From the NCBI GenBank assembly GCA_965116495.1, contig OZ220696.1, positions 2,528,001 through 2,592,000 of the forward strand: DNA of 64,000 nucleotides, in the 5' to 3' direction. Made by a program: the position numbers and the translations under genes. The first letter of the stretch is position 1. The number at the start of each line of letters is the position of its first letter. Shown piece by piece: positions 83 to 37,907 of the stretch. The notes under the pieces were generated by a model. That model was not told the origin of the DNA. It did not search any database and saw only the letters and a program-made list of their open reading frames with translations. The stretch is from Gammaproteobacteria bacterium (GTDB lineage: Bacteria > Pseudomonadota > Gammaproteobacteria > Eutrophobiales > Eutrophobiaceae).

Positions 83-1348
83 ATGTTGCAGAACAGGTGG
101 CCCAAGCGGTTTACCCTGGTAGGGCTGAGCTTCCTGGCCATGGTCATAGCCTATACCGACCGGGTCAATATCTCCGTCGCGGCAATCCAGATGCAGGACG
201 AGCTGGGCTGGTCCGACGCGACCAAGGGACTGGTGTTATCGTCATTTTTTATCGGCTACTTCTTCTTCCAGGTGCTCGGCGGCTGGCTGGCAAACCGTTA
301 CGGCGGAAAAATCGTCTTGGGCGTTGCGGTGATCCTGTGGTCCGGCTTCACCCTGTTGACGCCGCTCGCCGCCTTCACCGGTTCCCTGGTCCTGTTGCTG
401 GGAGCGAGAGTCCTGCTGGGCGTTGGCGAGGCCTCGGTGGCGCCGGCGGTATTGAACCTGTTCAGCCGCTGGGTACCGCCCGATGAACGGGCCCGGGCAG
501 TCGCTTTTTTGTCCAGTGGAGCAATCGTCGGCACACTGATCGCCCTGTTGGTCACCGGCTGGATTATCGTTGAGTTCGGCTGGCCCATGGCGTTTTACAG
601 TTTTGCCGTACTGGGATTTATCTGGGCCCTGTTCTGGTTCCGGTTCGTCAGAAACGACCCCGGTGAGCACCGGGATATTTCGGAAGCGGAACTCAGGCTG
701 CTTGCCGAAGTCCGGCAGGGTAATGCACGGGACAAGGCTATCCCCTGGCGCGTGATCTTATCCCACCGGGCGGCCTGGGCGCTGATTATTACCAATTTCT
801 GCACCAACTGGGGGCTGTACGTCGCCCTGGCGTGGCTGCCCAGCTACTTCTACGACACCCAGGGAATTTCCATAGTCGGCTCCGGCCTGTATTCCATGGC
901 GCCCTGGCTGTCCATGTTCTTCGCTATGAATATCGCCGGGTGGCTGGCGGACCGGGCGCTCAGCGGCGGCATGGATGCAACCCGGCTGCGCAAGATTGCC
1001 CAGACCATCGGGCTGGGCGGCTCGGCAGTGTTCCTGATTGCCGCGGGCAGCGCCGCCACGCCCCTGGTTGCGGTATTGACCATGTGCGGCGCGCTGGCCT
1101 GCCTGGGGGTGTGCTATTCGGGCTTCGCCCCGGCCGCGCTGGAAATGGCGCCGAGGCACGTTGATATATTGTGGAGCATCAGCAACACGTTCGGCACCAT
1201 CCCGGGGATCATCGGCGTGGCGGTGACCGGCTGGCTGGTGGGTGTCACCGGCACTTACCTTGCCGCGTTCGCCCTGGCCGCGGCGGTGCACATCATCGGG
1301 GCCGCGGTATGGTTGTTATTCGGTACGGCCAGGCAGGTCATTCACTGA
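83..1348 (+). CDS. MFS transporter, anion:cation symporter (ACS) family
   Basis: 421 aa hydrophobic protein with YTDRVNISVA, GGWLANRYGGK and SNTFGTIPGI motifs typical of ACS/SLC17-like carriers. Confidence 0.9.
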   Translation: MLQNRWPKRFTLVGLSFLAMVIAYTDRVNISVAAIQMQDELGWSDATKGLVLSSFFIGYFFFQVLGGWLANRYGGKIVLGVAVILWSGFTLLTPLAAFTGSLVLLLGARVLLGVGEASVAPAVLNLFSRWVPPDERARAVAFLSSGAIVGTLIALLVTGWIIVEFGWPMAFYSFAVLGFIWALFWFRFVRNDPGEHRDISEAELRLLAEVRQGNARDKAIPWRVILSHRAAWALIITNFCTNWGLYVALAWLPSYFYDTQGISIVGSGLYSMAPWLSMFFAMNIAGWLADRALSGGMDATRLRKIAQTIGLGGSAVFLIAAGSAATPLVAVLTMCGALACLGVCYSGFAPAALEMAPRHVDILWSISNTFGTIPGIIGVAVTGWLVGVTGTYLAAFALAAAVHIIGAAVWLLFGTARQVIH

Positions 1349-29342: not shown

Positions 29343-29752
29343 GTGAAAGACAACGACCCCTGCCGGAGATACAGTCTTTTTCCAGGCCGTTCTGGGACGG
29401 GACCCGCGCCCACAAACTGCTGATCCAGCATTGCTGCGACTGTGACGCCCTGATCTTCTACCCGCGCCGGGAATGTCCCGAATGCTGGTCCACCAACCTG
29501 GACTGGAAGGAAAGCAGCGGCAAGGCAACCCTGTACTCTTATTCCATAACCTACGAAGGCGTGGAAGAGAAGTTTGCCGACGACCTGCCGATTATCCTGG
29601 CCTGGGTGGATCTGGCGGAAGGGGTCAGGATAACGACCAATATTATCGATTGCGACCCCGGTGATGTTTATATAGGCATGGAACTTGAGGTCGCGTATCG
29701 CGCGCTGACCGACGAAGTGACCCTGCCGTTCTTTAGACCTGTTAAATCATGA
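29339..29752 (+). CDS. DUF35 Zn-ribbon/OB-fold protein
   Basis: RPFWDG, CCDC...YPRRECPEC, VDLAEGVRI, LPFFRP; ATGA overlap with the thiolase-like gene. Confidence 0.88.
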   Translation: MSERQRPLPEIQSFSRPFWDGTRAHKLLIQHCCDCDALIFYPRRECPECWSTNLDWKESSGKATLYSYSITYEGVEEKFADDLPIILAWVDLAEGVRITTNIIDCDPGDVYIGMELEVAYRALTDEVTLPFFRPVKS

Positions 29753-29812
29753 ACAGCCTCCATGTCTGAACTTGCCGGCAGGTTAAAACAGGAAGCCTGC
29801 TGTTTTCCTGTT

Positions 29813-29865
29813 GGGGAACAGACCCCCGCTTACAACATGCGGGGGCATGCTTGAAATCTGTCCCC
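29813..29865. repeat. Family B element with nested GC hairpin
   Basis: GGGGAACAGA...AAATCTGTCCCC enclosing CCCCCGC-N9-GCGGGGG. Confidence 0.6.
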
Positions 29866-30435
29866 GAAAAGTCAGAGCATAGCAGACCAGGTTGGGGCAA
29901 ATGGGGAACCTGGGAGGAGACTGAATCGTTCTTGGGCAAGGTCATCGGCGTCGCAGAGGGCGCGGACGCCGTGGAACAGGGCACCATCAGGCGCTGGATG
30001 GAATCCAAGGAGTTCGACTGCCCCATCCACCTTGACGATGCGGCCGCCCGGGCGGCGGGCTACAATGGCATAATTGCGCCGGACAGCATGATCTTCACCT
30101 ACGGCCTCCCTGCCTACTGGCAGAGTGGCGACCCCCATGAAAAGCCCGGCGCCGAGCCCAAACAAATTCCCATCCCGGTCATTTTCGATGTGCCGGCGCC
30201 CTGCAACCTGAGTTTCGCCTCCAATATCGACGTGGAATATTTCGCGCCCATGTACCTGGGTGACCGGATTACCCGCACCAGCCGCCTGGTGAGCATAAAT
30301 CGCAAGACCCTGCGGGTCGGCAACGGCGCCTTTCTGCGCCAGGAAGACACCTACACCAACCAGCATGACGAGGTGGTTGCCATCGTCAACCTGGATATAT
30401 TCAGGTTCGTTGCGCCGGACGGCAAGGAAGACTGA
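29851..30435 (+). CDS. MaoC/FAS1-like dehydratase N-terminal-type subunit
   Basis: VEQGTIRRW, PIHLDDAAARAAGYNGIIAP, EYFAPMYLGD, YTNQHDEVVA; start uncertain (TTG inside a repeat). Confidence 0.8.
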   Translation: MKSVPEKSEHSRPGWGKWGTWEETESFLGKVIGVAEGADAVEQGTIRRWMESKEFDCPIHLDDAAARAAGYNGIIAPDSMIFTYGLPAYWQSGDPHEKPGAEPKQIPIPVIFDVPAPCNLSFASNIDVEYFAPMYLGDRITRTSRLVSINRKTLRVGNGAFLRQEDTYTNQHDEVVAIVNLDIFRFVAPDGKED

Positions 30436-30436
30436 A

Positions 30437-30868
30437 ATGGTCGACTGGTCCAGGCAGATAACCCTTGACGATGTAGCCGTAGGCGCGGAGATTCCGGAAA
30501 CCTCCATGCCCATCACCCTGCAGCGCCTGGTGATGGAAGCCGGCTCCAACCGCGACCTGTCGCTCATCCACCATGACAAGGAAGTAGCGCAATCAACCGG
30601 CGCTTCCGACGCTTACATGAATACGTTTTTTATCCTGGGCCTGTTCGAAAGAATGCTGCGGGAGTGGATGGGGACGGGAGGCAGGCTGAAAAAGATCGGC
30701 TCCCTGCAGATGAAGTCCTTCAACGTCGTCGGCGACGTCGTCTATTGCAGGGGCAAGGTAACCGGCAAGCAGGATGACGGGACGGTGAACCTTGATATCC
30801 GGATGGAGAATGAGGAAAGGGTTACTGTGACCGCGGTCACTGTGGTAAACCTGCCATTGGAAGCGTAA
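30437..30868 (+). CDS. MaoC-family dehydratase subunit
   Basis: AGSNRDLSLIHHD hydratase motif, GKVTGK. Confidence 0.82.
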   Translation: MVDWSRQITLDDVAVGAEIPETSMPITLQRLVMEAGSNRDLSLIHHDKEVAQSTGASDAYMNTFFILGLFERMLREWMGTGGRLKKIGSLQMKSFNVVGDVVYCRGKVTGKQDDGTVNLDIRMENEERVTVTAVTVVNLPLEA

Positions 30869-30871
30869 TAA

Positions 30872-30900
30872 CGTCATTCCTGCGAATGCAGGAATTCAGT
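30872..30900 (+). repeat. REP-like palindrome, family A
   Basis: CGTCATTCCTGCGAATGCAGGAATTCAGT; left edge of the TA islet. Confidence 0.8.
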
Positions 30901-30944
30901 CAAAAATTATCTTCATCTCATTTCACATTGGAAAATACTGACAT

Positions 30945-30973
30945 TTGACTATCGAACATTTTTGTTCGATACT
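30945..30973 (+). promoter_or_regulatory. hicAB promoter with palindromic operator
   Basis: TTGACT-N17-GATACT overlapping the inverted repeat TATCGAACA-N4-TGTTCGATA. Confidence 0.7.
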
Positions 30974-30980
30974 GGCAACT

Positions 30981-31193
30981 ATGAAGGGAAGCGAATTTAT
31001 TAACCGGGTGAAAAAACTGGCTAAGGCTAAGGGTTTTCCGTTTGAGGTAAGTAGAGAACGTGGAAAGGGCAGTCACATAACCCTGTATTATGCTGACCGA
31101 TATACAATTCTGAGAAATCCGAAAGATGAATTGAAAACAGGCACTTACCATGCCATGTTGAAACAACTGGGGATTGACAAATCGGAGATATAG
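30981..31193 (+). CDS. hicA: HicA family toxin
   Basis: 70 aa basic protein, RGKGSH, ELKTGTYHAMLKQLGI. Confidence 0.9.
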   Translation: MKGSEFINRVKKLAKAKGFPFEVSRERGKGSHITLYYADRYTILRNPKDELKTGTYHAMLKQLGIDKSEI

Positions 31194-31196
31194 ACC

Positions 31197-31622
31197 ATGA
31201 AATACACTTATCCTGTCATTCTCACTGAAGACAAAGATGATGGCGGATACATCGTTACTTGCCGTGACCTCCCGGAAGTGATTACCCAGGGCGATACGGT
31301 TGCAGAAGCACTTGCTGCGGCGGCCGATGCGCTGGATGAAGCCTTTTGCGGCCACATCAATCACGGCAGAGATATTCCTGAACCTTCGGCTGAACAGGCC
31401 GGAGAACGGTTGGTTCCGGTACCGGTGATCACTGCCTTGAAAGCAGCGGCTTACACCAAATTTCGCGAATCCGGCCAGACCAAGGTGGCGATTGCCGAAG
31501 TCCTGGACATCAAAGAAAGCGAAGTACGCCGCATTCTTGACCCGCGCCATGGCACCAAGGCCGCTACCCTGGAATGGTTTATCCGTTCGTTAGGGGGCGA
31601 CGTGCTAGTTAGTATGAGTTAG
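31197..31622 (+). CDS. hicB: HicB family antitoxin with C-terminal HTH
   Basis: YPVIL..DDGGYIVTCRDLPEVITQGDT..EAL, RRILDPRHGTK. Confidence 0.9.
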   Translation: MKYTYPVILTEDKDDGGYIVTCRDLPEVITQGDTVAEALAAAADALDEAFCGHINHGRDIPEPSAEQAGERLVPVPVITALKAAAYTKFRESGQTKVAIAEVLDIKESEVRRILDPRHGTKAATLEWFIRSLGGDVLVSMS

Positions 31623-31663
31623 TCAATCCCGGTTCAAGTAAACAAAATGAACGGCAACCTGGT

Positions 31664-32643
31664 ATGAATGACCCTGACGCGCATATCCGGTCGGCTGCGA
31701 TTTCCGCCATGGAAAAACTGGTGCGCTACCAGCCGGACGGATTGGTCTCTTGGGATGCAATCCACCGGGGATTTCAGGTCGGTTCCGAACATATTCACTT
31801 CGCCAACCGCGCTCGAGGCATCTTCAAACCCAGGCAGATGAGCGCGGCGCTTAGCATCAAAACGGTGGTTCCTCGCGCCGGACGTCCCACGTGGTACAGC
31901 GACCAGGGATTAGCTTCATCAAAGCTTGATGCCCTGACAGGTTTGTGGCATTACGATTTGGCGCGCGGGGGACTGGACGATCACACCAACCGGGCATTGC
32001 AAACGGCCATGTATCGTAGCGCGCCACTGATCTATTTCATCGGAGTGCAGGAAAAAACATACCAGCCTGTATTCCCGGTGTGGGTAGAAGAGTTTGACCC
32101 GGAGGCGGGACACGTACTGCTGGCAGCCGCCGATATCGGGGACAACCGCCTGAGTTCGGTCGCGGTGGCACGCAATAACCTGCCCCTGTCTGTCGAAACA
32201 TCCTGGACTTTGCGAACTGCGCGGGCGAGAAACCACCAGGCCTGGTTCAGCACCCGGACAAAAGCGGCTTACCGATGGCGCTGCGCCTTCAGTGGGTTGC
32301 CGGTACGTCAACTGCTTGTCGGCGCGCACATCGTTCCCGATGCCGAAGGCGGCCCGCATCAGTCCGCAACGGCATTTGCATGACGACGCTGCATCACACG
32401 GCGTTCGATTCGAACCTCATCGGCGTAGCTCCCGACTTTCGTATTCACGTCTCTCCGTCACTACGCGACCAAAAAGACGGTACGCTGCTGGCAAATCTTA
32501 AAAATCTGGAAGGACAGCGGCTTCGGCTTCCTGGTAATCCTATGGATAAGCCGGACTCCAACCTGTTGGAAAAGCGCTTCAAGAAATTTGAGATAAGTAT
32601 AAGGTATCAGTCATTACTGACGCTGAACGAACCAAGTAATTGA
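31664..32643 (+). pseudogene. HNH restriction-endonuclease-like gene split by a 1-nt frameshift near 32355
   Basis: Frame 1 ends AYRWRCAFSG...GAHIVPDAEGGP; frame 2 continues ASVRNGICMTTLHHTAFDSNLIGV. Confidence 0.82.
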
Positions 32644-32771
32644 TGTTAGGCTCCTACTAGTGGTGATATTGGAAATATCATCCTGTCTCCTTGAAGATCA
32701 GAGCTATCATCGCGCCGTCAAATTCGTTGGGTAACCCGACTTCTCCGGGTTGAGGAAACAGGGGGGGTAAT

Positions 32772-32847
32772 GGGGTCAGTATAAATAAAGCCCTGCTTAC
32801 TATTTGATGAAATGCAATGAATTTCACTGAAATTATATTGGTCCGAC
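32772..32847. repeat. Degenerate family B element
   Basis: GGGGTCAGTATAAATAA...TTATATTGGTCCGACCC, imperfect arms between convergent genes. Confidence 0.45.
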
Positions 32848-32872
32848 CCACCAGAACGTCTCAGTCATTCTC

Positions 32873-33223
32873 CTACCATTCAAACCCAAGCACAATCCTG
32901 AGGTACTCCTCGACCTCTGCCAGTTCCTGTCTGGTCAATATTGTCAGTACCTCGTTGGAAATACGCCTGTTGTCGATGGTTCTTACTTGATCGAGCATGA
33001 CCTCGGAATCTGACCGCAGTCCATCCCTGGTGCTGATCCGAAAACGCAACGGGGCCGTATTGTCGATCAACCTGCTGGTGAGCGGTATGACCGTTGTGCT
33101 TGTGTGGAGGGCGTCATTCAGATGATTGCTCTGGATGATCAGGCATGGCCTTATCTTGCCGGGTTCTATACCCTTCGAAGGATTAAAATTTGCAAGACGT
33201 ATTTCGCCGCGTCTATAGGCCAT
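32873..33223 (-). CDS. mazF: PemK/MazF family toxin
   Basis: RRGEIRLANFNPSKGIEPGKIRPCLIIQ, VIPLTS, DQVRTIDNRR. Confidence 0.9.
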   Translation of the reverse strand: MAYRRGEIRLANFNPSKGIEPGKIRPCLIIQSNHLNDALHTSTTVIPLTSRLIDNTAPLRFRISTRDGLRSDSEVMLDQVRTIDNRRISNEVLTILTRQELAEVEEYLRIVLGFEW

Positions 33224-33446
33224 CGGCGTCGACTGCGTCCAATTCGGAAACGTACTGCAGGGCTTCCTCACGAACTTTCAGTGACGCCTCCCGAATCTGG
33301 CGTCCCAGAGAGACTCGCTCCAGGTGAATTTTGTAGTTCAATACTGCGGCGCGCATGACCCCGCTCTTCGTTGTGTTCAGATTTCTTGCAAGTCCTGTCA
33401 GCAGGGCGTCAAACGTATCATCGGCTTTAAGGGTAATAGTCTTCAT
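33213..33446 (-). CDS. Ribbon-helix-helix antitoxin
   Basis: MKTITLK...TKSGVMRAAV, C-terminal DADGL, overlaps the toxin start. Confidence 0.82.
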   Translation of the reverse strand: MKTITLKADDTFDALLTGLARNLNTTKSGVMRAAVLNYKIHLERVSLGRQIREASLKVREEALQYVSELDAVDADGL

Positions 33447-33511
33447 TGCTGTGTTTGGTATTACTGATTTAAGTAATTATAGCGGGAAGAGGGACGGATT
33501 TCAAATCTATA
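33411..33511. repeat. 101-bp direct repeat, copy 1 (antitoxin 5' end, promoter and family B half-site)
   Basis: Aligns without gaps to 35259-35359 with about 12 mismatches. Confidence 0.9.
33476..33504 (-). promoter_or_regulatory. Sigma70 promoter of the antitoxin-mazF operon
   Basis: Minus strand TTGAAA-N17-TATAAT; the -35 lies within the AGATTTGAAATCCGTCCC half-site. Confidence 0.75.
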
Positions 33512-33641
33512 TCTGGACGGCATCCAGTTGATTAAGGTCGGGAGGGAAAGCAGGCAAGAAGGGGCAATCCTACCAAGAGGAAAAGGAATTAGTCATAGTG
33601 TGCGACCAGCAGATTTTCTGATCTCCTGTAAATTCCTTAAC

Positions 33642-34223
33642 TTAATCTATTGGTAGCGCCATTTCGTTTCGAACTCTATCATAGAGTTCTAACATTATTT
33701 CCTTGTATTTTTTAGAATTCGATTCTTCTATTTCAGAAATTTTCTCAAGCATATTTGCAATCGCGTACGATACTGTTATAAAGATATCCCTAGAGCATAA
33801 TACCAACGGTTCTTGTTCCTCAATCTGGCGTGAGTATTTCCTGCAAAATTGTAGCCTACCATCAGCGTTTGTAATAAAAATCGGAACCTCCATGCTAGGT
33901 AGACCACCAAAATGCAAAAGTGAATTTCTTACTTTATATAATAGTTCACCATTTAGGCCGTAGAACTCATCTCGATGACTTACAAAAAATTTATTTGTTT
34001 CGCTAAAAATAAATTCATCTGACCATTTGTTAAATCTTTCTCGTTGATTTGCATTATTTTCAATTACTAAATCCCAGACCTGAGAAAATATATCAACATA
34101 AACCATAAGTAACATAATCTTGAATTTCGCTTGTAAAGGAGATGTGCCGATATATTCAACCTCATTTCCTAAATGCATCATCCAGCGCAGTACAAATTGC
34201 TCTTCTTTCGTTGTCATTTTCAC
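33642..34223 (-). CDS. Hypothetical AT-rich protein with HEPN-like RxxxxH motif
   Basis: 193 aa, helical-looking, YKVRNSLLHFG. Confidence 0.6.
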   Translation of the reverse strand: MKMTTKEEQFVLRWMMHLGNEVEYIGTSPLQAKFKIMLLMVYVDIFSQVWDLVIENNANQRERFNKWSDEFIFSETNKFFVSHRDEFYGLNGELLYKVRNSLLHFGGLPSMEVPIFITNADGRLQFCRKYSRQIEEQEPLVLCSRDIFITVSYAIANMLEKISEIEESNSKKYKEIMLELYDRVRNEMALPID

Positions 34224-34386
34224 TCTTATTTTGTGATGCTATCTCGCTTTTTTGACAAGCCTACATATTGTAGATGAACCCCTCCCAGTAACCTGATCTA
34301 CCTGCGGTTAAGGCCAAAGCTTAACTGATTTGCCAAATTCATCTATCTACCAATCGTCCGAACCGATAATAGACTGAACACAGTCT

Positions 34387-34650
34387 TCAGGGTATATCCT
34401 GGCCTTTCAGAGCAGGAGATTTCCAGATATCCTCGGAAAATGGTTCTCCGGCAAGACTGTCGAGCCAGGCAATGCCTTCAAAACATACATCGTCATACCG
34501 AGGGTTTTTTATCGGATTAATCAGATTACGAGCTTTCCGTTGCCTGTTTTTATAATTTGCTCGCAAATCACGCACCTGTCTTCCAAACTCCTGCTTTTTC
34601 CTCTCCGATAAGTGATCTATGTTCATGGCATTATGCATATAAAATTTCAC
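34387..34650 (-). CDS. Hypothetical protein or gene fragment
   Basis: 87 aa ORF directly after yafQ on the same strand; no recognised motif. Confidence 0.3.
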   Translation of the reverse strand: MKFYMHNAMNIDHLSERKKQEFGRQVRDLRANYKNRQRKARNLINPIKNPRYDDVCFEGIAWLDSLAGEPFSEDIWKSPALKGQDIP

Positions 34651-34659
34651 ATCATGCGT

Positions 34660-34926
34660 TCAGTCGAACAAGTCGGAGTGTGTTCCATTGCGTACCAGAA
34701 TGAGAGCATCTTGTCTCTGGTCCCAAATTAATAACCAGTCCGGTTCTACATGACATTCCCAATAAGAAGACCACTTGCCTGATAGCCGATGAGGTCTGTT
34801 TACTGGATCAAGGGGTTGCTGTGACAGTAGCCGTTCAACAATACGCCAAAGCTTGTCGAGATCCTTACCGCGTCTCCTTGAGCGCTTGAGATCCTTTTCA
34901 AATCGCTTCGTAGTAAGCAGTCGCAC
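34660..34926 (-). CDS. yafQ: YafQ family toxin
   Basis: TKRFEKDLKR, HRLSGKW, ECHVEPDWLLIW, RNGTHSDLF. Confidence 0.92.
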   Translation of the reverse strand: MRLLTTKRFEKDLKRSRRRGKDLDKLWRIVERLLSQQPLDPVNRPHRLSGKWSSYWECHVEPDWLLIWDQRQDALILVRNGTHSDLFD

Positions 34927-34929
34927 GTA

Positions 34930-35187
34930 TTACCTGTGTCTGGCCTTGAGACTCTCCAAATCGGCGTATTCAGTGAGACCTGCTCCGGATTGCGCTTGGT
35001 GGAGCGCTTTGATGGTCTCGGCATTGGGAACCTTCACAGCAAAGGGTAACCCTTTATGCAGGGTGACCTGCGTGTAAAACAACGTAATCGCCTCGGTTGG
35101 CGACAGGCCGAGCTTCGATAAAACATCTTCGGCCTGGTGTTTCAATTCCGGCTCAACGCGAGCGCGGATCATTTCAGTCTTTGCCAT
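34930..35187 (-). CDS. dinJ: DinJ/RelB family antitoxin
   Basis: IRARVEPELK.QAE.VL..LGLS..EAI.LF...GLPFAVKVPNAET. Confidence 0.92.
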   Translation of the reverse strand: MAKTEMIRARVEPELKHQAEDVLSKLGLSPTEAITLFYTQVTLHKGLPFAVKVPNAETIKALHQAQSGAGLTEYADLESLKARHR

Positions 35188-35213
35188 GGACACCTCAGTT
35201 GTAGTTCTCGGAT

Positions 35214-35241
35214 AATGTACCACAAATGGGATACAAGTCAA
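35214..35241 (-). promoter_or_regulatory. dinJ-yafQ promoter/operator
   Basis: Minus strand TTGACT-N16-TACATT with an imperfect TGTA...TACA inverted repeat. Confidence 0.55.
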
Positions 35242-35258
35242 CATACATAACCCTGCAT

Positions 35259-35359
35259 AAACGTGTCATCGGCTTTAAGAATAATGGTCTTCATCGCTGT
35301 ATCTGGTATTACTGATTTAAGTAGTTATAGCGGGGAGGAGGACAGATTTCAAATCTATA
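35259..35359. repeat. 101-bp direct repeat, copy 2, with a 12-codon antitoxin remnant
   Basis: Minus strand TTGAAA-N17-TATAAC, then MKTIILKADDTF, then unrelated sequence and a stop. Confidence 0.9.
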
Positions 35360-35394
35360 AGCCAATTGATTAAGCTATCGCGACGGTTTGTTCT

Positions 35395-35424
35395 ACTGGA
35401 TACCGGGTCAAGCCCGGTACGACG
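35395..35424 (-). repeat. REP-like palindrome, family A variant
   Basis: Minus strand CGTCGTACCGGGCTTGACCCGGTATCCAGT; right edge of the TA islet. Confidence 0.75.
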
Positions 35425-35467
35425 AATGGGTTAGAGGTAAGACTTGAAGTCCGTCCACGGCCGCGCT

Positions 35468-36646
35468 CTAATCCTTAACCAATTCGCTGCCGATGATCAA
35501 TTGCCGGATCTGCACCGTGCCGCCGCCGATTTCCAGGAGTTTGCCGCAGCGGTAAAGTTGGTTAATCTCCGCCTCGCGCATGAAGCCCATGCCGCCGTGT
35601 ACCTGTACGCCGTTGTCCAGTACGCGCATGCAGGCGCGCGCCGTTTGCAGGAACACCGCGGCGCAGCGTTTCTGCAGTTCGCCCTGGCTCAAACCTTCTT
35701 TATCCTCTGCAAATAGTTGCTGCGCGGTCTGGTAGGTAAACGCTCGCATGGTTTCCACGTCGGTGTACATATCGGCCAGCATGGCCTGCACCAATTGGAA
35801 ATTGCCGATGGGCCGGCCGAACTGCTCACGGGTTCGGGCATATTCAATGGATATGTCCAATGCCCGCTGCGCCACCCCCAGGTTGTAGAACCCAAGTACC
35901 AGGCGCTCGACGTTCAGGCCGCTCATCATGACTGCAACTCCCTTGTTCTCGCCGCCCATGAGGTTGTCTGCCGGCACCTCGCAATCGGTGAAAATCAGTT
36001 CGCCGGTGGGACTGCCGCGCCAACCCATCTTGTCCAGCTTCTGCGCGCTGCTGAAACCGGGAAACTCTCTCTCGACGATGAAGGCGGAGATGCCGTGATG
36101 CCCCTGTTCCGGGTCCGTCCTGGCATAGACCACCGCGATATCGGCCACCGGCGCGTTGGAGATGAACATCTTGCGGCCGTTGAGAATAAACTTATCGCCC
36201 TGCCTGACTGCCGCCGACTTCATGCTGCCCAGAGCATCCGACCCGGCGCCGGGTTCGGTCATGCCCATGGCGCCGATCGCGCTTCCATCACAGAAGCGCG
36301 GCAGGTATGTCCGTTTCTGTCCGGCGCTGCCGTTGCGCACGATATTGTGGACGCAGATATTCTCGCTGGAGAGCCAGGCCGCGCAGAATGAGTGGCTCCA
36401 GTAGGCCATGGCTTCGGCGGCGACGCACTGCGCCAGGAAATCCAGTCCCTGCCCGCCGAATTCTTCCGGGACCGTCAGCCCGAGCAACCCGACGTCGGCA
36501 AGCGAGCGGAAACGTTCTTCGGGGAACCAGTCGTCCCGGTCCATCCTGTCGTTCAGCGGGTGCAGTTCCTCCCTGCTGAAGCGATACACCGCATCGTAGA
36601 CCTGCTGGTATTCGTCCGCGAAGCCGTATGAGGAGAGCTTGATCAT
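35468..36646 (-). CDS. Acyl-CoA dehydrogenase, isovaleryl-CoA dehydrogenase-like
   Basis: MTEPGAGSD, KLDKMGWRGSPTGEL, MMSGLNVERL, LLEIGGGT (IVD-type catalytic Glu position). Confidence 0.9.
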   Translation of the reverse strand: MIKLSSYGFADEYQQVYDAVYRFSREELHPLNDRMDRDDWFPEERFRSLADVGLLGLTVPEEFGGQGLDFLAQCVAAEAMAYWSHSFCAAWLSSENICVHNIVRNGSAGQKRTYLPRFCDGSAIGAMGMTEPGAGSDALGSMKSAAVRQGDKFILNGRKMFISNAPVADIAVVYARTDPEQGHHGISAFIVEREFPGFSSAQKLDKMGWRGSPTGELIFTDCEVPADNLMGGENKGVAVMMSGLNVERLVLGFYNLGVAQRALDISIEYARTREQFGRPIGNFQLVQAMLADMYTDVETMRAFTYQTAQQLFAEDKEGLSQGELQKRCAAVFLQTARACMRVLDNGVQVHGGMGFMREAEINQLYRCGKLLEIGGGTVQIRQLIIGSELVKD

Positions 36647-36663
36647 AACCCGTTGCCTTCAAT

Positions 36664-36747
36664 CATTCCTAATTCCTAATTCGTAATTCCTACTTCCTAA
36701 TTCGTAATTCCTAATTCCTAACCCGTAATTCCTAACCCGTAATTCCA
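36664..36747. repeat. Heptamer tandem repeat, 12 units of AATTC(C/G)T and variants
   Basis: AATTCCT/AATTCGT/AACCCGT units; overlaps the CoA-transferase stop codon. Confidence 0.92.
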
Positions 36748-37907
36748 GATATGATGTTGTCCGCCAACAATTCCGCGATTCGCTCCCCGCTATACCCCCA
36801 ATCCAGCAATACCTCTTCCGTGTGCTGTCCGGGTTCCGGCGGCGGCGACTGTATCTCCGCAGGGGTCCGGCTGAAGCGGGGTGCGGGCGCGGGTTGTATG
36901 ACTCCGTCGACGCTGGCGTAAGCGTCCCTGGCCTGCGCGTGGGGGTGCTGCGTGGCTTCCGTCAGGCCCAGTACCGGCGCGAAGCAGGCATCGGAGCCAT
37001 CAAATATCTCGCACCATTCATCTCGGGTTCTGGTCAGGAATATGTCCTGCAATTTGTCAGCAAACTCCGGCCAGCGGTCCTGGTTGTGCTGCTGCTTGCG
37101 CAGCTCCGGGTCGCTGATTTCAAGCCGGTCCAGCAATTCGCTGTAGAACCGCCCTTCAATCGGTGCAACAACCACGTACTGATCGTCTTTGGTCCGGTAG
37201 GTATTCACGAAATGGGCGCCGCCGTCCAGGATGTTGCTGCCCCGTTGTTCTTTCCAGAGCCCTGCGGCCAGCAATCCGTAAAACGCTGTCATCATGGACG
37301 CCGCGCCGTCGACCATGGCCGTGTCAACCACCTGCCCCCGCCCTGATTTTGCCGTCTCCAGCATGGCGGCCAGCATTCCCATGGCCAGGTACAGGGCACC
37401 GCCGCCGAAATCGCCGATCAGGTTCAACGGATAAGCCGGCGCTTCATCCTGTTTGCCGATACAGGCCAGGACTCCGGCGATACCGATGTAGTTGGGATCG
37501 TGTCCCGCGGTTTCAGCCAGCGGACCGTCCTGCCCCCAGCCGGTCATACGGCCGTAGACCAGCCTCCCGTTGCGCCCCATGCACTCATCCGGCCCCAGCC
37601 CCAGGCGTTCCATGACCCCGGGCCGGAACCCTTCGAACAGCGCATCGGCGCCGGCGCACAGGTCCAGGACAACATCCCTGCCCTGTGGTTGTTTCAGGTC
37701 TATGGCGATGGAGCGCCTGCTCCTGTTCATCAGCTTGTATTTCACGGGCATGTAAACGCCCAGTTCCACCTTGGTGAGGCGTTCGACGCGTACGATCTCC
37801 GCGCCCATGTCCGCCAGCAGCATACCGGTCAACTGGGTGGGGCCGACACCGGCAATCTCAATCAGCTTATAGCCGGACAGGGGGCCTTTGGCGTTATTTG
37901 CAGGCAT
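36732..37907 (-). CDS. CaiB/BaiF family III CoA-transferase, alpha-methylacyl-CoA racemase-like
   Basis: LADMGAE, EGFRPGVMERLGLG, AGHDPNY, LIGDFGGG, PAPAPRFSRTP. Confidence 0.9.
   Translation of the reverse strand: MPANNAKGPLSGYKLIEIAGVGPTQLTGMLLADMGAEIVRVERLTKVELGVYMPVKYKLMNRSRRSIAIDLKQPQGRDVVLDLCAGADALFEGFRPGVMERLGLGPDECMGRNGRLVYGRMTGWGQDGPLAETAGHDPNYIGIAGVLACIGKQDEAPAYPLNLIGDFGGGALYLAMGMLAAMLETAKSGRGQVVDTAMVDGAASMMTAFYGLLAAGLWKEQRGSNILDGGAHFVNTYRTKDDQYVVVAPIEGRFYSELLDRLEISDPELRKQQHNQDRWPEFADKLQDIFLTRTRDEWCEIFDGSDACFAPVLGLTEATQHPHAQARDAYASVDGVIQPAPAPRFSRTPAEIQSPPPEPGQHTEEVLLDWGYSGERIAELLADNIISGITG

What the first reader, a model, noticed from the sequence alone, without database searches (positions are those of the whole stretch)
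33411..35359. Duplicated 101-bp promoter module in which a palindromic-repeat half-site forms the -35 box
Seen: 33411-33511 and 35259-35359 align without gaps (about 12 mismatches, all transitions by my count). Each holds a family B half-site (AGATTTGAAATC(C/T)GTCC) whose TTGAAA sits exactly 17 nt from TATAAT or TATAAC, followed by the antitoxin start. Copy 1 leads the intact RHH-MazF pair; copy 2 breaks off after 12 codons and is followed by dinJ-yafQ, a small ORF and the HEPN-like gene. Inference: cassettes are stacked next to these repeat ends and the repeat works as a portable promoter half, a cassette-array behaviour with no integrase in view.
Basis: partly seen in the sequence, partly recalled or inferred. 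Interest (0 to 1): 0.7.

Follow-up and report, generated by a model that had tools for sequence, protein, structure and literature searches.

The report
Toxin-antitoxin promoter borrowed from transposase repeat
A toxin-antitoxin gene pair in a gene-swapping hotspot carries a leftover piece of a common transposase-linked palindrome that likely serves as its -35 promoter box; this looks like one inherited accident, and the repeat shows no link to toxin-antitoxin genes genome-wide, so it is probably not a new cassette system.

Summary
The 101-bp duplicate is real (12 transitions; two copies in the genome; short-read contigs agree). Family B is a 25-bp palindrome with about 80 genome copies, fits the published GGGGWSAS repeat class, and flanks a RAYT-like transposase gene in two same-genus genomes. 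In 6 of 11 relatives carrying this RHH-MazF pair, a B-like right arm gives TTGAA exactly 17 nt before the -10 box. One keeps the full palindrome, and TTGAA is invariant while the arm decays. The -35 role is therefore likely, but it looks like a single inherited event: B travels with the module and is absent from the empty site. The cassette-array reading fails its tests. B is not enriched near toxin-antitoxin loci (6 of 64 versus 5.0 expected), no other TTG-oriented copy has a strong -10 at 16-18 nt (0 of 61), and dinJ has its own promoter. The locus is an integrase-free hotspot with different cargo in each relative. Copy 2 is a deletion relic; allele capture by recombination is inferred. A weak genus-wide excess of 16-18-nt spacing (11 of 49, p=0.008) mostly involves housekeeping genes.

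The parts
33411..33511 (-). Module copy 1: B remnant, -35/-10, operator, first 12 codons of the intact RHH antitoxin; upstream homology to the REP-C-adjacent site continues to about 33538
33491..33508 (-). Family B remnant (right arm plus centre, 18 of 25 bases); predicted -35 TTGAAA at 33504-33499
   Evidence: full palindrome at the same position in G001
33476..33481 (-). Predicted -10 TATAAT; lies where G005-type and distant homologues have their own -35 (TTGTAA)
33447..33475 (-). Predicted RHH operator (imperfect 29-bp inverted repeat conserved in distant homologues); holds a decayed proximal -10 (TACCAA)
   Evidence: binding inferred
33213..33446 (-). RHH (CopG-like) antitoxin, 77 aa
   Evidence: no Pfam hit
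32873..33223 (-). MazF/PemK toxin
   Evidence: PF02452 E 1e-26
35259..35359 (-). Module copy 2 (relic): B remnant 35340-35356, -35 at 35352-35347, weakened -10 TATAAC at 35329-35324, RHH start at 35294 broken after codon 12
35212..35241 (-). dinJ-yafQ's own predicted promoter (TTGACT-16-TACATT); homology to relatives ends at or within about 8 bp of this -35
34930..35187 (-). DinJ antitoxin
   Evidence: PF04221, TIGR02384
34660..34926 (-). YafQ toxin
   Evidence: PF15738
34387..34650 (-). Small ORF of unknown function; follows dinJ or dinJ-yafQ in G003, G014, G018
33642..34223 (-). Stand-alone HEPN-like gene (R-x4-H motif)
31664..32643 (+). HNH nuclease gene split into two ORFs here; one 314-aa ORF in G016 and G018
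30981..31622 (+). hicA-hicB pair
   Evidence: PF07927, PF15919
30872..30899 (+). CGTC-type REP (family A) after the MaoC-like gene, left edge of the hotspot
35396..35423 (-). CGTC-type REP (family C), right edge of the hotspot; also present at the empty site in G002
35434..35458 (+). Third, more decayed family B variant (6 mismatches) between REP C and the acyl-CoA dehydrogenase stop
30437..30868 (+). MaoC-like gene, left flanking core gene
35468..36646 (-). Acyl-CoA dehydrogenase, right flanking core gene

Best explanation
The two copies are the 5' end of one RHH-MazF toxin-antitoxin unit whose promoter likely uses the centre of a transposase-linked (RAYT/TIRYT-type) palindrome as its -35 box, sitting twice in an integrase-free gene-swapping hotspot, with copy 2 a deletion relic and the duplication likely made by recombination between two alleles of the same site. 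Steps: (1) shown by comparison: relatives of this unit have a proximal promoter-like arrangement (TTGnnn-16/17-TACYAT, then a start codon with no obvious ribosome-binding site). (2) inferred: in one lineage that -35 changed to TATAAT and a family B palindrome 8 bp upstream supplied TTGAAA at 17 nt. (3) shown: right arm plus unit occur at two chromosomal hotspots, the left arm replaced by three different sequences that all stop 0-5 bp short of TTGAA; inferred cause: selection keeps the -35 only. (4) inferred: an allele REP C-module-RHH-mazF-dinJ-yafQ (gene order seen in G003) lost RHH-mazF by deletion, and a second allele of the same site was added behind it, probably by homology-anchored recombination of incoming DNA.
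For: Spacing of 17 and invariant TTGAA in 8 of 8 B-linked copies from 7 genomes; spacer 0.70 conserved, upstream 7 columns 0.64. Full palindrome in G001. Upstream promoter scores 11-15 bits versus -1.7 to 5.8 for the proximal one in B-linked copies; the reverse (about 7.5 versus 1-3) in G005, G014, G266 (weights recalled, approximate). dinJ homology also ends at its -35. B copies flank an intact RAYT-like gene in G016 and its broken orthologue in G008. Flanking genes adjacent with different cargo in 7 of 22 relatives, from about 100 bp (G002) to 23.5 kb (G018). Copy 1 carries about 30 bp of sequence found next to REP C in G018 and copy 2. Ragged fusions and internal deletions are common in these arrays. 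comEC is intact; the nearest tyrosine recombinase is more than 570 kb away.
Against: No transcript data. The B-linked copies are kin, so 8 of 8 is about one event. The 12 differences split 5 derived in copy 1 and 7 in copy 2, so copy 2 is not clearly decaying faster. Identity of the G022/G015/G016 sequence as B-derived rests on about 11 matching bases. Allele capture was not separated from in-place tandem duplication; copy 1 and copy 2 are closer to each other (89/101) than to G018 (84, 83). comEC occurs in non-transformable bacteria too (10 of 14 control genomes).
Confidence: 0.6

Rival explanations
1. One reading: family B ends are cassette insertion points and portable -35 halves, building an integron-like array without an integrase (possibly through the B-specific RAYT).
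For: B remnants recur inside this hotspot: three in G000, one each at the module in G018 and G020, a degenerate copy between two vapC pairs in G016, and one before a hicB remnant at the second hotspot in G014. Cassettes are mostly co-oriented with the flanking genes. A B-flanked RAYT exists in the genus. Genus-wide 11 of 49 B-to-TANAAT events fall at 16-18 nt (p=0.008).
Against: No enrichment near toxin-antitoxin loci (5 of 45 vs 4.2; 6 of 64 vs 5.0; 9 of 64 vs 8.3). 0 of 61 TTG-oriented full sites with a strong -10 at 16-18 nt. Empty site lacks B. Left junctions differ between genomes. No shared 3' cassette end. Of the 11 events one is this module and most precede housekeeping genes; no TTG bias (3 of 11 vs 9 of 38, p=0.55). 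G000 lacks the B-specific RAYT with this query.
Confidence: 0.08
2. The B remnant is a passive hitch-hiker: the unit is transcribed from the proximal leaderless promoter or by read-through, and the 17-nt spacing is incidental.
For: The proximal -10 (TACYAT) is intact in G003, G015, G016, G022. G003 has TATAAT with a non-B -35 at 18 nt. Distant homologues often have a distal -10 with unrelated upstream -35 sequences, so B is not needed.
Against: In copy 1 the proximal promoter is decayed (CTATAA-16-TACCAA, -1.7 bits) while the upstream one is 11/12; such sites occur 15 times per Mb; TTGAA is invariant across two loci.
Confidence: 0.15
3. Same promoter story, but the duplication arose in place (tandem duplication or hairpin-triggered rearrangement at REP C/B), followed by insertion of dinJ-yafQ and the HEPN gene and deletion of the first RHH-mazF.
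For: Copies are closest to each other; G005 has two RHH-mazF copies 2 kb apart.
Against: 12% divergence spread over both copies; the order RHH-mazF-dinJ-yafQ-small ORF already exists in G003, which fits import of a ready-made allele.
Confidence: 0.2

Closest known systems
TIRtron/TIRYT repeats with the GGGGWSAS motif (Di Nocera et al. 2013, PMC3733652; Quentin et al., 10.1101/279083), within the RAYT/REP superfamily (Bertels et al. 2017, PMC5581495)
   Same: Family B begins GGGGACAG, occurs singly, in dimers and clusters, some self-complementary, and flanks a Y1 transposase gene in G016 and G008.
   Different: The B-flanked protein is 210 aa with no C-terminal HTH extension examined, so probably not subclass 2.1 (not tested). 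The passages read do not report a promoter role for these repeats.
Promoters supplied by small repeats and IS ends (Correia elements, Neisseria REP2, MITEAba12; Delihas 2011, PMC3184786; PMC6382973; IS hybrid promoters from recall)
   Same: A mobile repeat likely contributes a promoter element to a neighbouring gene.
   Different: Here only the -35 comes from the repeat, from the palindrome centre; it is fixed in one gene lineage, not shown to recur in this genome, and untested.
Integrase-free HGT hotspots (Oliveira et al. 2017, PMC5635113) and plastic toxin-antitoxin insertion loci (Fraikin et al. 2020, PMC7167474)
   Same: Variable defence and toxin-antitoxin cargo between conserved core genes, no integrase, REPs at empty sites.
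   Different: Comparison here is across species of a genus, not strains; recombination in flanking genes was not measured.
Integron cassette arrays
   Same: Stacked, mostly co-oriented toxin-antitoxin genes with their own promoters.
   Different: No integrase nearby, no repeated attC-like site at cassette ends, ragged junctions.

Membership tests
TIRYT/RAYT-associated repeat (family B) | GGGGWSAS terminal motif | tested here: met
   consensus GGGGACRG; motif from PMC3733652; copies with G at the R position miss one base
TIRYT/RAYT-associated repeat (family B) | Dispersed multicopy palindrome far above chance | tested here: met
   79 sites with at most 4 mismatches vs 0 in shuffled genome
TIRYT/RAYT-associated repeat (family B) | Copies flank a Y1 (HUH) transposase gene | tested here: met
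   1 of 22 Y1 loci examined (L192, G016) plus broken orthologue in G008; not in G000
TIRYT/RAYT-associated repeat (family B) | Cleavage or mobilisation by that transposase | not testable with these tools
   needs in vitro assay
GTAG/CGTC-tagged REP (family B) | Unpaired GTAG or CGTC tag at one end | tested here: not met
   flanks of B copies are variable; families A and C do carry CGTC-like tags
Integron cassette array | Integron integrase next to the array | tested here: not met
   9 PF00589 matches in the genome, nearest more than 570 kb away
Integron cassette array | Repeated attC-like site at each cassette end | tested here: not met
   no shared 3' end in relatives, only repeat within the array is the module, no Rfam hit; no dedicated attC model was run
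Hybrid promoter from a mobile repeat | -35 from the element at 16-18 nt from a host -10 | tested here: met
   17 nt in 8 of 8 B-linked copies
Hybrid promoter from a mobile repeat | Transcription starts there and depends on that -35 | not testable with these tools
   no RNA holder listed
Integrase-free HGT hotspot | Variable accessory genes between conserved flanking genes | tested here: met
Integrase-free HGT hotspot | Raised homologous recombination in flanking core genes | not tested
   needs strain-level genomes
Type II toxin-antitoxin (RHH-MazF) | Antitoxin-toxin bicistron with RHH and PemK domains | tested here: met
   (RHH support weak)
Type II toxin-antitoxin (RHH-MazF) | Toxicity, neutralisation, autorepression | not testable with these tools
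   bench test

The most novel reading that the evidence does not exclude
Family B repeats are RAYT-spread promoter parts: their TTNAA centre rescues or creates sigma-70 promoters across this genus (the 16-18-nt excess; also ahcY with an SAH riboswitch in Thiogranum/Thiohalobacter), and RAYT nicking at B hairpins seeds the integrase-free hotspots where toxin-antitoxin units land, giving a testable route for how such units integrate.
Probability: 0.1. Interest if true: 0.7.

Novelty: new member of a known kind. Interest (0 to 1): 0.3.

Why it matters
It is a traceable case of promoter turnover: a toxin-antitoxin unit's own -35 seems to have become a -10 while a transposase-linked palindrome supplied a new -35, with intact, truncated and repeat-free states all present in one genus. 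It also assigns an abundant repeat family to a candidate transposase. How toxin-antitoxin units integrate is still called unresolved (PMC7167474, passage read), and this hotspot series is usable material, but the evidence here points to known processes rather than a new cassette machine.

Tried and rejected
Enrichment of B (and families A, C, D, E, F, H) near toxin-antitoxin loci: none (loci defined by PIN, ParE, Phd, PemK searches and tblastn with 21 local queries, so incomplete). -10 spacing behind full B sites in G000: flat. GTDB-wide exact pattern: 17 hits, about 13 events, 4 at 16-18 nt, p=0.35. Downstream same-strand gene test for the 16-18 group: 8 of 11 vs 22 of 38, p=0.30 (one control row had the wrong strand, corrected to 21 of 38). 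The 24-bp B variant gave no 16-18 peak by inspection (not tested statistically). A fixed cut site in B: rejected, three different left junctions and almost no other true half-sites in G000. Excision joint between the copies: none listed in 4 contig sets (contigs drop rare variants). RNA: no RNA holder listed. Rfam on 29500-37000: no hit. Foldseek on the HEPN-like model: no hit at E<=0.001. GxxExxY as the B enzyme: only one broken match in the genome, flanks not examined. Literature searches for REP plus toxin-antitoxin plus promoter or hotspot, hybrid promoters from palindromes, integrase-free tandem toxin-antitoxin arrays and TIRtron listed no report of this module or of a GGGGWSAS repeat acting as -35; the library lacks most subscription papers, and figures and supplements (for example Figure 9 of PMC3733652) were not seen.

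Full report
Observation. The two stretches 33411-33511 and 35259-35359 align without gaps with 12 mismatches, all transitions, and have no third copy in the 4.34-Mb single-contig genome G000. On the minus strand each reads: 17-18 bases of the family B palindrome, TTGAAA, 17 nt, TATAAT (copy 1) or TATAAC (copy 2), a 29-bp operator-like stretch and the first 12 codons of a 77-aa protein. Copy 1 is the best sigma-70 match of 30500-36000 (11/12); such matches occur 65 times in the genome. Short-read contigs reproduce the arrangement: X1 spans 32242-35782 without a difference (it may be the source sample) and X5, from another study, has short contigs identical to each copy.

What family B is. It is a 25-bp palindrome, GGGGACRGATTTNAAATCYGTCCCC, with 79 sites at four mismatches or fewer against 0 in a shuffled genome, plus a 24-bp variant and longer dimers. 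It lacks GTAG/CGTC tags but fits the GGGGWSAS motif of inverted repeats that flank RAYT-like 'TIRYT' genes (PMC3733652, passages read; 10.1101/279083, passages read). Of 22 Y1-transposase loci of the genus that I examined, one (L192, G016) is flanked on both sides by B copies; its broken orthologue in G008 is too. G000 has no close homologue; its only intact RAYT is 33-34% identical and flanked by another family. That this enzyme spread B is inferred.

The module in relatives. The DNA matches 11 of 22 same-genus genomes and 0 of 38 more distant ones. In G001 a full palindrome stands at the same place; G018 and G020 have a decayed right arm; G015, G016, G022 a more decayed one. All give TTGAA 17 nt before the -10. 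Across 8 copies TTGAA is invariant, the spacer is 0.70 conserved and the 7 upstream columns 0.64. The left arm is replaced by three different sequences, each ending 0-5 bp before TTGAA. These copies lie at two chromosomal sites and share spacer sequence, so they are best read as one event carried along. G003 has TATAAT with TTGGCA at 18 nt and no B; G005 (two copies), G014 and G266 keep a proximal arrangement with TTGTAA-like sequence where G000 has TATAAT; G004 and G009 are internally deleted. Of 53 metagenome homologues only L067, nearly the G016 arrangement, has B-like sequence; the others share the operator palindrome and either a proximal promoter before a start with no obvious ribosome-binding site or a distal one with unrelated -35 sequence (recalled approximate weights). 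In copy 1 the proximal promoter is decayed, which favours the B-derived one.

The locus. The junction between the convergent MaoC-like and acyl-CoA dehydrogenase genes is a hotspot. Of 22 relatives, 7 have both flanks adjacent: about 100 bp with REP C and no B in G002, phd-vapC in G022, brnT-brnA plus carbonic anhydrase in G015, hicAB in G004, 6.2 kb in G020, 22 kb of metabolic genes in G008, 23.5 kb with restriction-modification, darTG, higBA and the module in G018; G016 (TIR protein, vsr, parE, relE, two vapC pairs) is cut by a contig end. Junctions are ragged, with gene fragments and internal deletions. No integrase lies within 570 kb; comEC is intact. This matches integrase-free hotspots attributed to recombination at flanking genes (PMC5635113, abstract and passages) and plastic toxin-antitoxin loci (PMC7167474, one passage); homology-facilitated illegitimate recombination is documented in other bacteria (PMC6382021, passages).

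Why two copies. Copy 2 sits where the module sits in G018, next to REP C. G003 has RHH-mazF followed by dinJ-yafQ and the small ORF, so copy 2 reads as that order with RHH-mazF deleted after codon 12; dinJ keeps its own promoter. Copy 1 carries about 30 bp of the REP-C-adjacent sequence, so it derives from the same site. The 12 differences split 5 and 7 between the copies. Capture of a second allele is my preferred inference; in-place duplication is not excluded.

Tests of the cassette-array idea. B lies within 1 kb of 5 of 45 toxin-antitoxin clusters (4.2 expected) and, with a wider set that includes this locus, within 600 bp of 6 of 64 (5.0) and 1.2 kb of 9 of 64 (8.3). None of 61 TTG-oriented full sites has a strong -10 at 16-18 nt. 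True half-sites are nearly confined to this locus. A GTDB-wide exact pattern gave 17 hits, about 13 events, 4 at 16-18 nt (p=0.35). One result points the other way: a genus-wide search gave 82 rows; after dropping 15 that end in another repeat family and 2 second matches, and merging 16 orthologous rows by eye, 11 of 49 events fall at 16-18 nt (p=0.008 under a uniform null; 0.012 without this module and with three further merges; 0.035 on a narrower range). Most precede housekeeping genes, there is no TTG bias (p=0.55) and the downstream-gene test is not significant (8 of 11 vs 21-22 of 38). This fits a filter in which a B landing in a promoter is tolerated when its centre falls at -35, but it is weak.

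Verdict. Observation confirmed; interpretation partly supported. Shown: duplication, B origin of the -35-like hexamer, hotspot behaviour, B-flanked transposase in the genus, no genome-wide B-toxin-antitoxin link. Inferred: promoter activity, order of events, allele capture. Repeats supplying promoters are known (PMC3184786 and PMC6382973, passages; PMC5581495 passages on RAYTs); my searches listed no report for this repeat class, with figures and supplements unseen. No earlier scan note resembles the sequence. New member of a known kind; interest 0.3.

Noticed in passing
L040, L051, L054 about 1095-1231 (minus strand; Thiogranum and Thiohalobacter records): A full family B palindrome gives TTGAAA-16-TATAAT directly upstream of an SAH riboswitch (Rfam RF01057), between a metK-like gene and a probable ahcY: an independent candidate for B as -35 of a housekeeping gene.
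   Followed up: partly
L192:529-2162 (G016) and L221 (G008): 210-aa RAYT-like gene flanked by clusters of family B copies downstream of an htpG-like gene; candidate cognate transposase, broken in G008.
   Followed up: partly
L017, L174, L180, L188, L195; L178, L191: Other RAYT genes of the genus are each flanked by their own GGGGTCAG-type repeat family (D or E), so several repeat-transposase pairs coexist.
   Followed up: partly
L196-L208: Second hotspot downstream of an HD-domain gene: RHH-mazF in G001, G015, G016, G022, further along in G003, a B variant plus hicB remnant in G014, none in several others.
   Followed up: partly
window 31426-31602 versus L028, L031, L034: The same internal hicB deletion occurs in G005, G014 and G016 at different loci and in a co-occurring strain in runs X1/X2; G000 has the long form.
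   Followed up: no
L028:8633 and L034:8012: dinJ fragments in G016 and G014 are fused to a sequence resembling the arm of the B dimer (ACAGATTTATTTT).
   Followed up: no
G000:C1:1565473-1565530: A B-arm dimer enclosing TATAAT lies about 60-120 bp upstream of another AbrB-type-mazF pair.
   Followed up: partly
L125, L126 (G001): Tandem array of related coiled-coil/nuclease-like genes, each preceded by a unit containing the 24-bp B variant and TATAAT.
   Followed up: no
window 33642-34223 and 34387-34650: Stand-alone HEPN-like family (16 homologues, no Pfam) and an 87-aa family of unknown function that travels with dinJ; both are candidate defence or accessory genes.
   Followed up: partly
G000 whole genome: Very toxin-antitoxin-rich (34 PIN, 20 Phd, 11 ParE, 4 PemK matches) with at least seven dispersed repeat families.
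   Followed up: partly
L021:776-800, L022, L029: Another palindrome (TTGAGATCACA-n3-TGTGATCTCAA type) at hotspot edges in G002, G003, G020; not found in G000 with my pattern.
   Followed up: no
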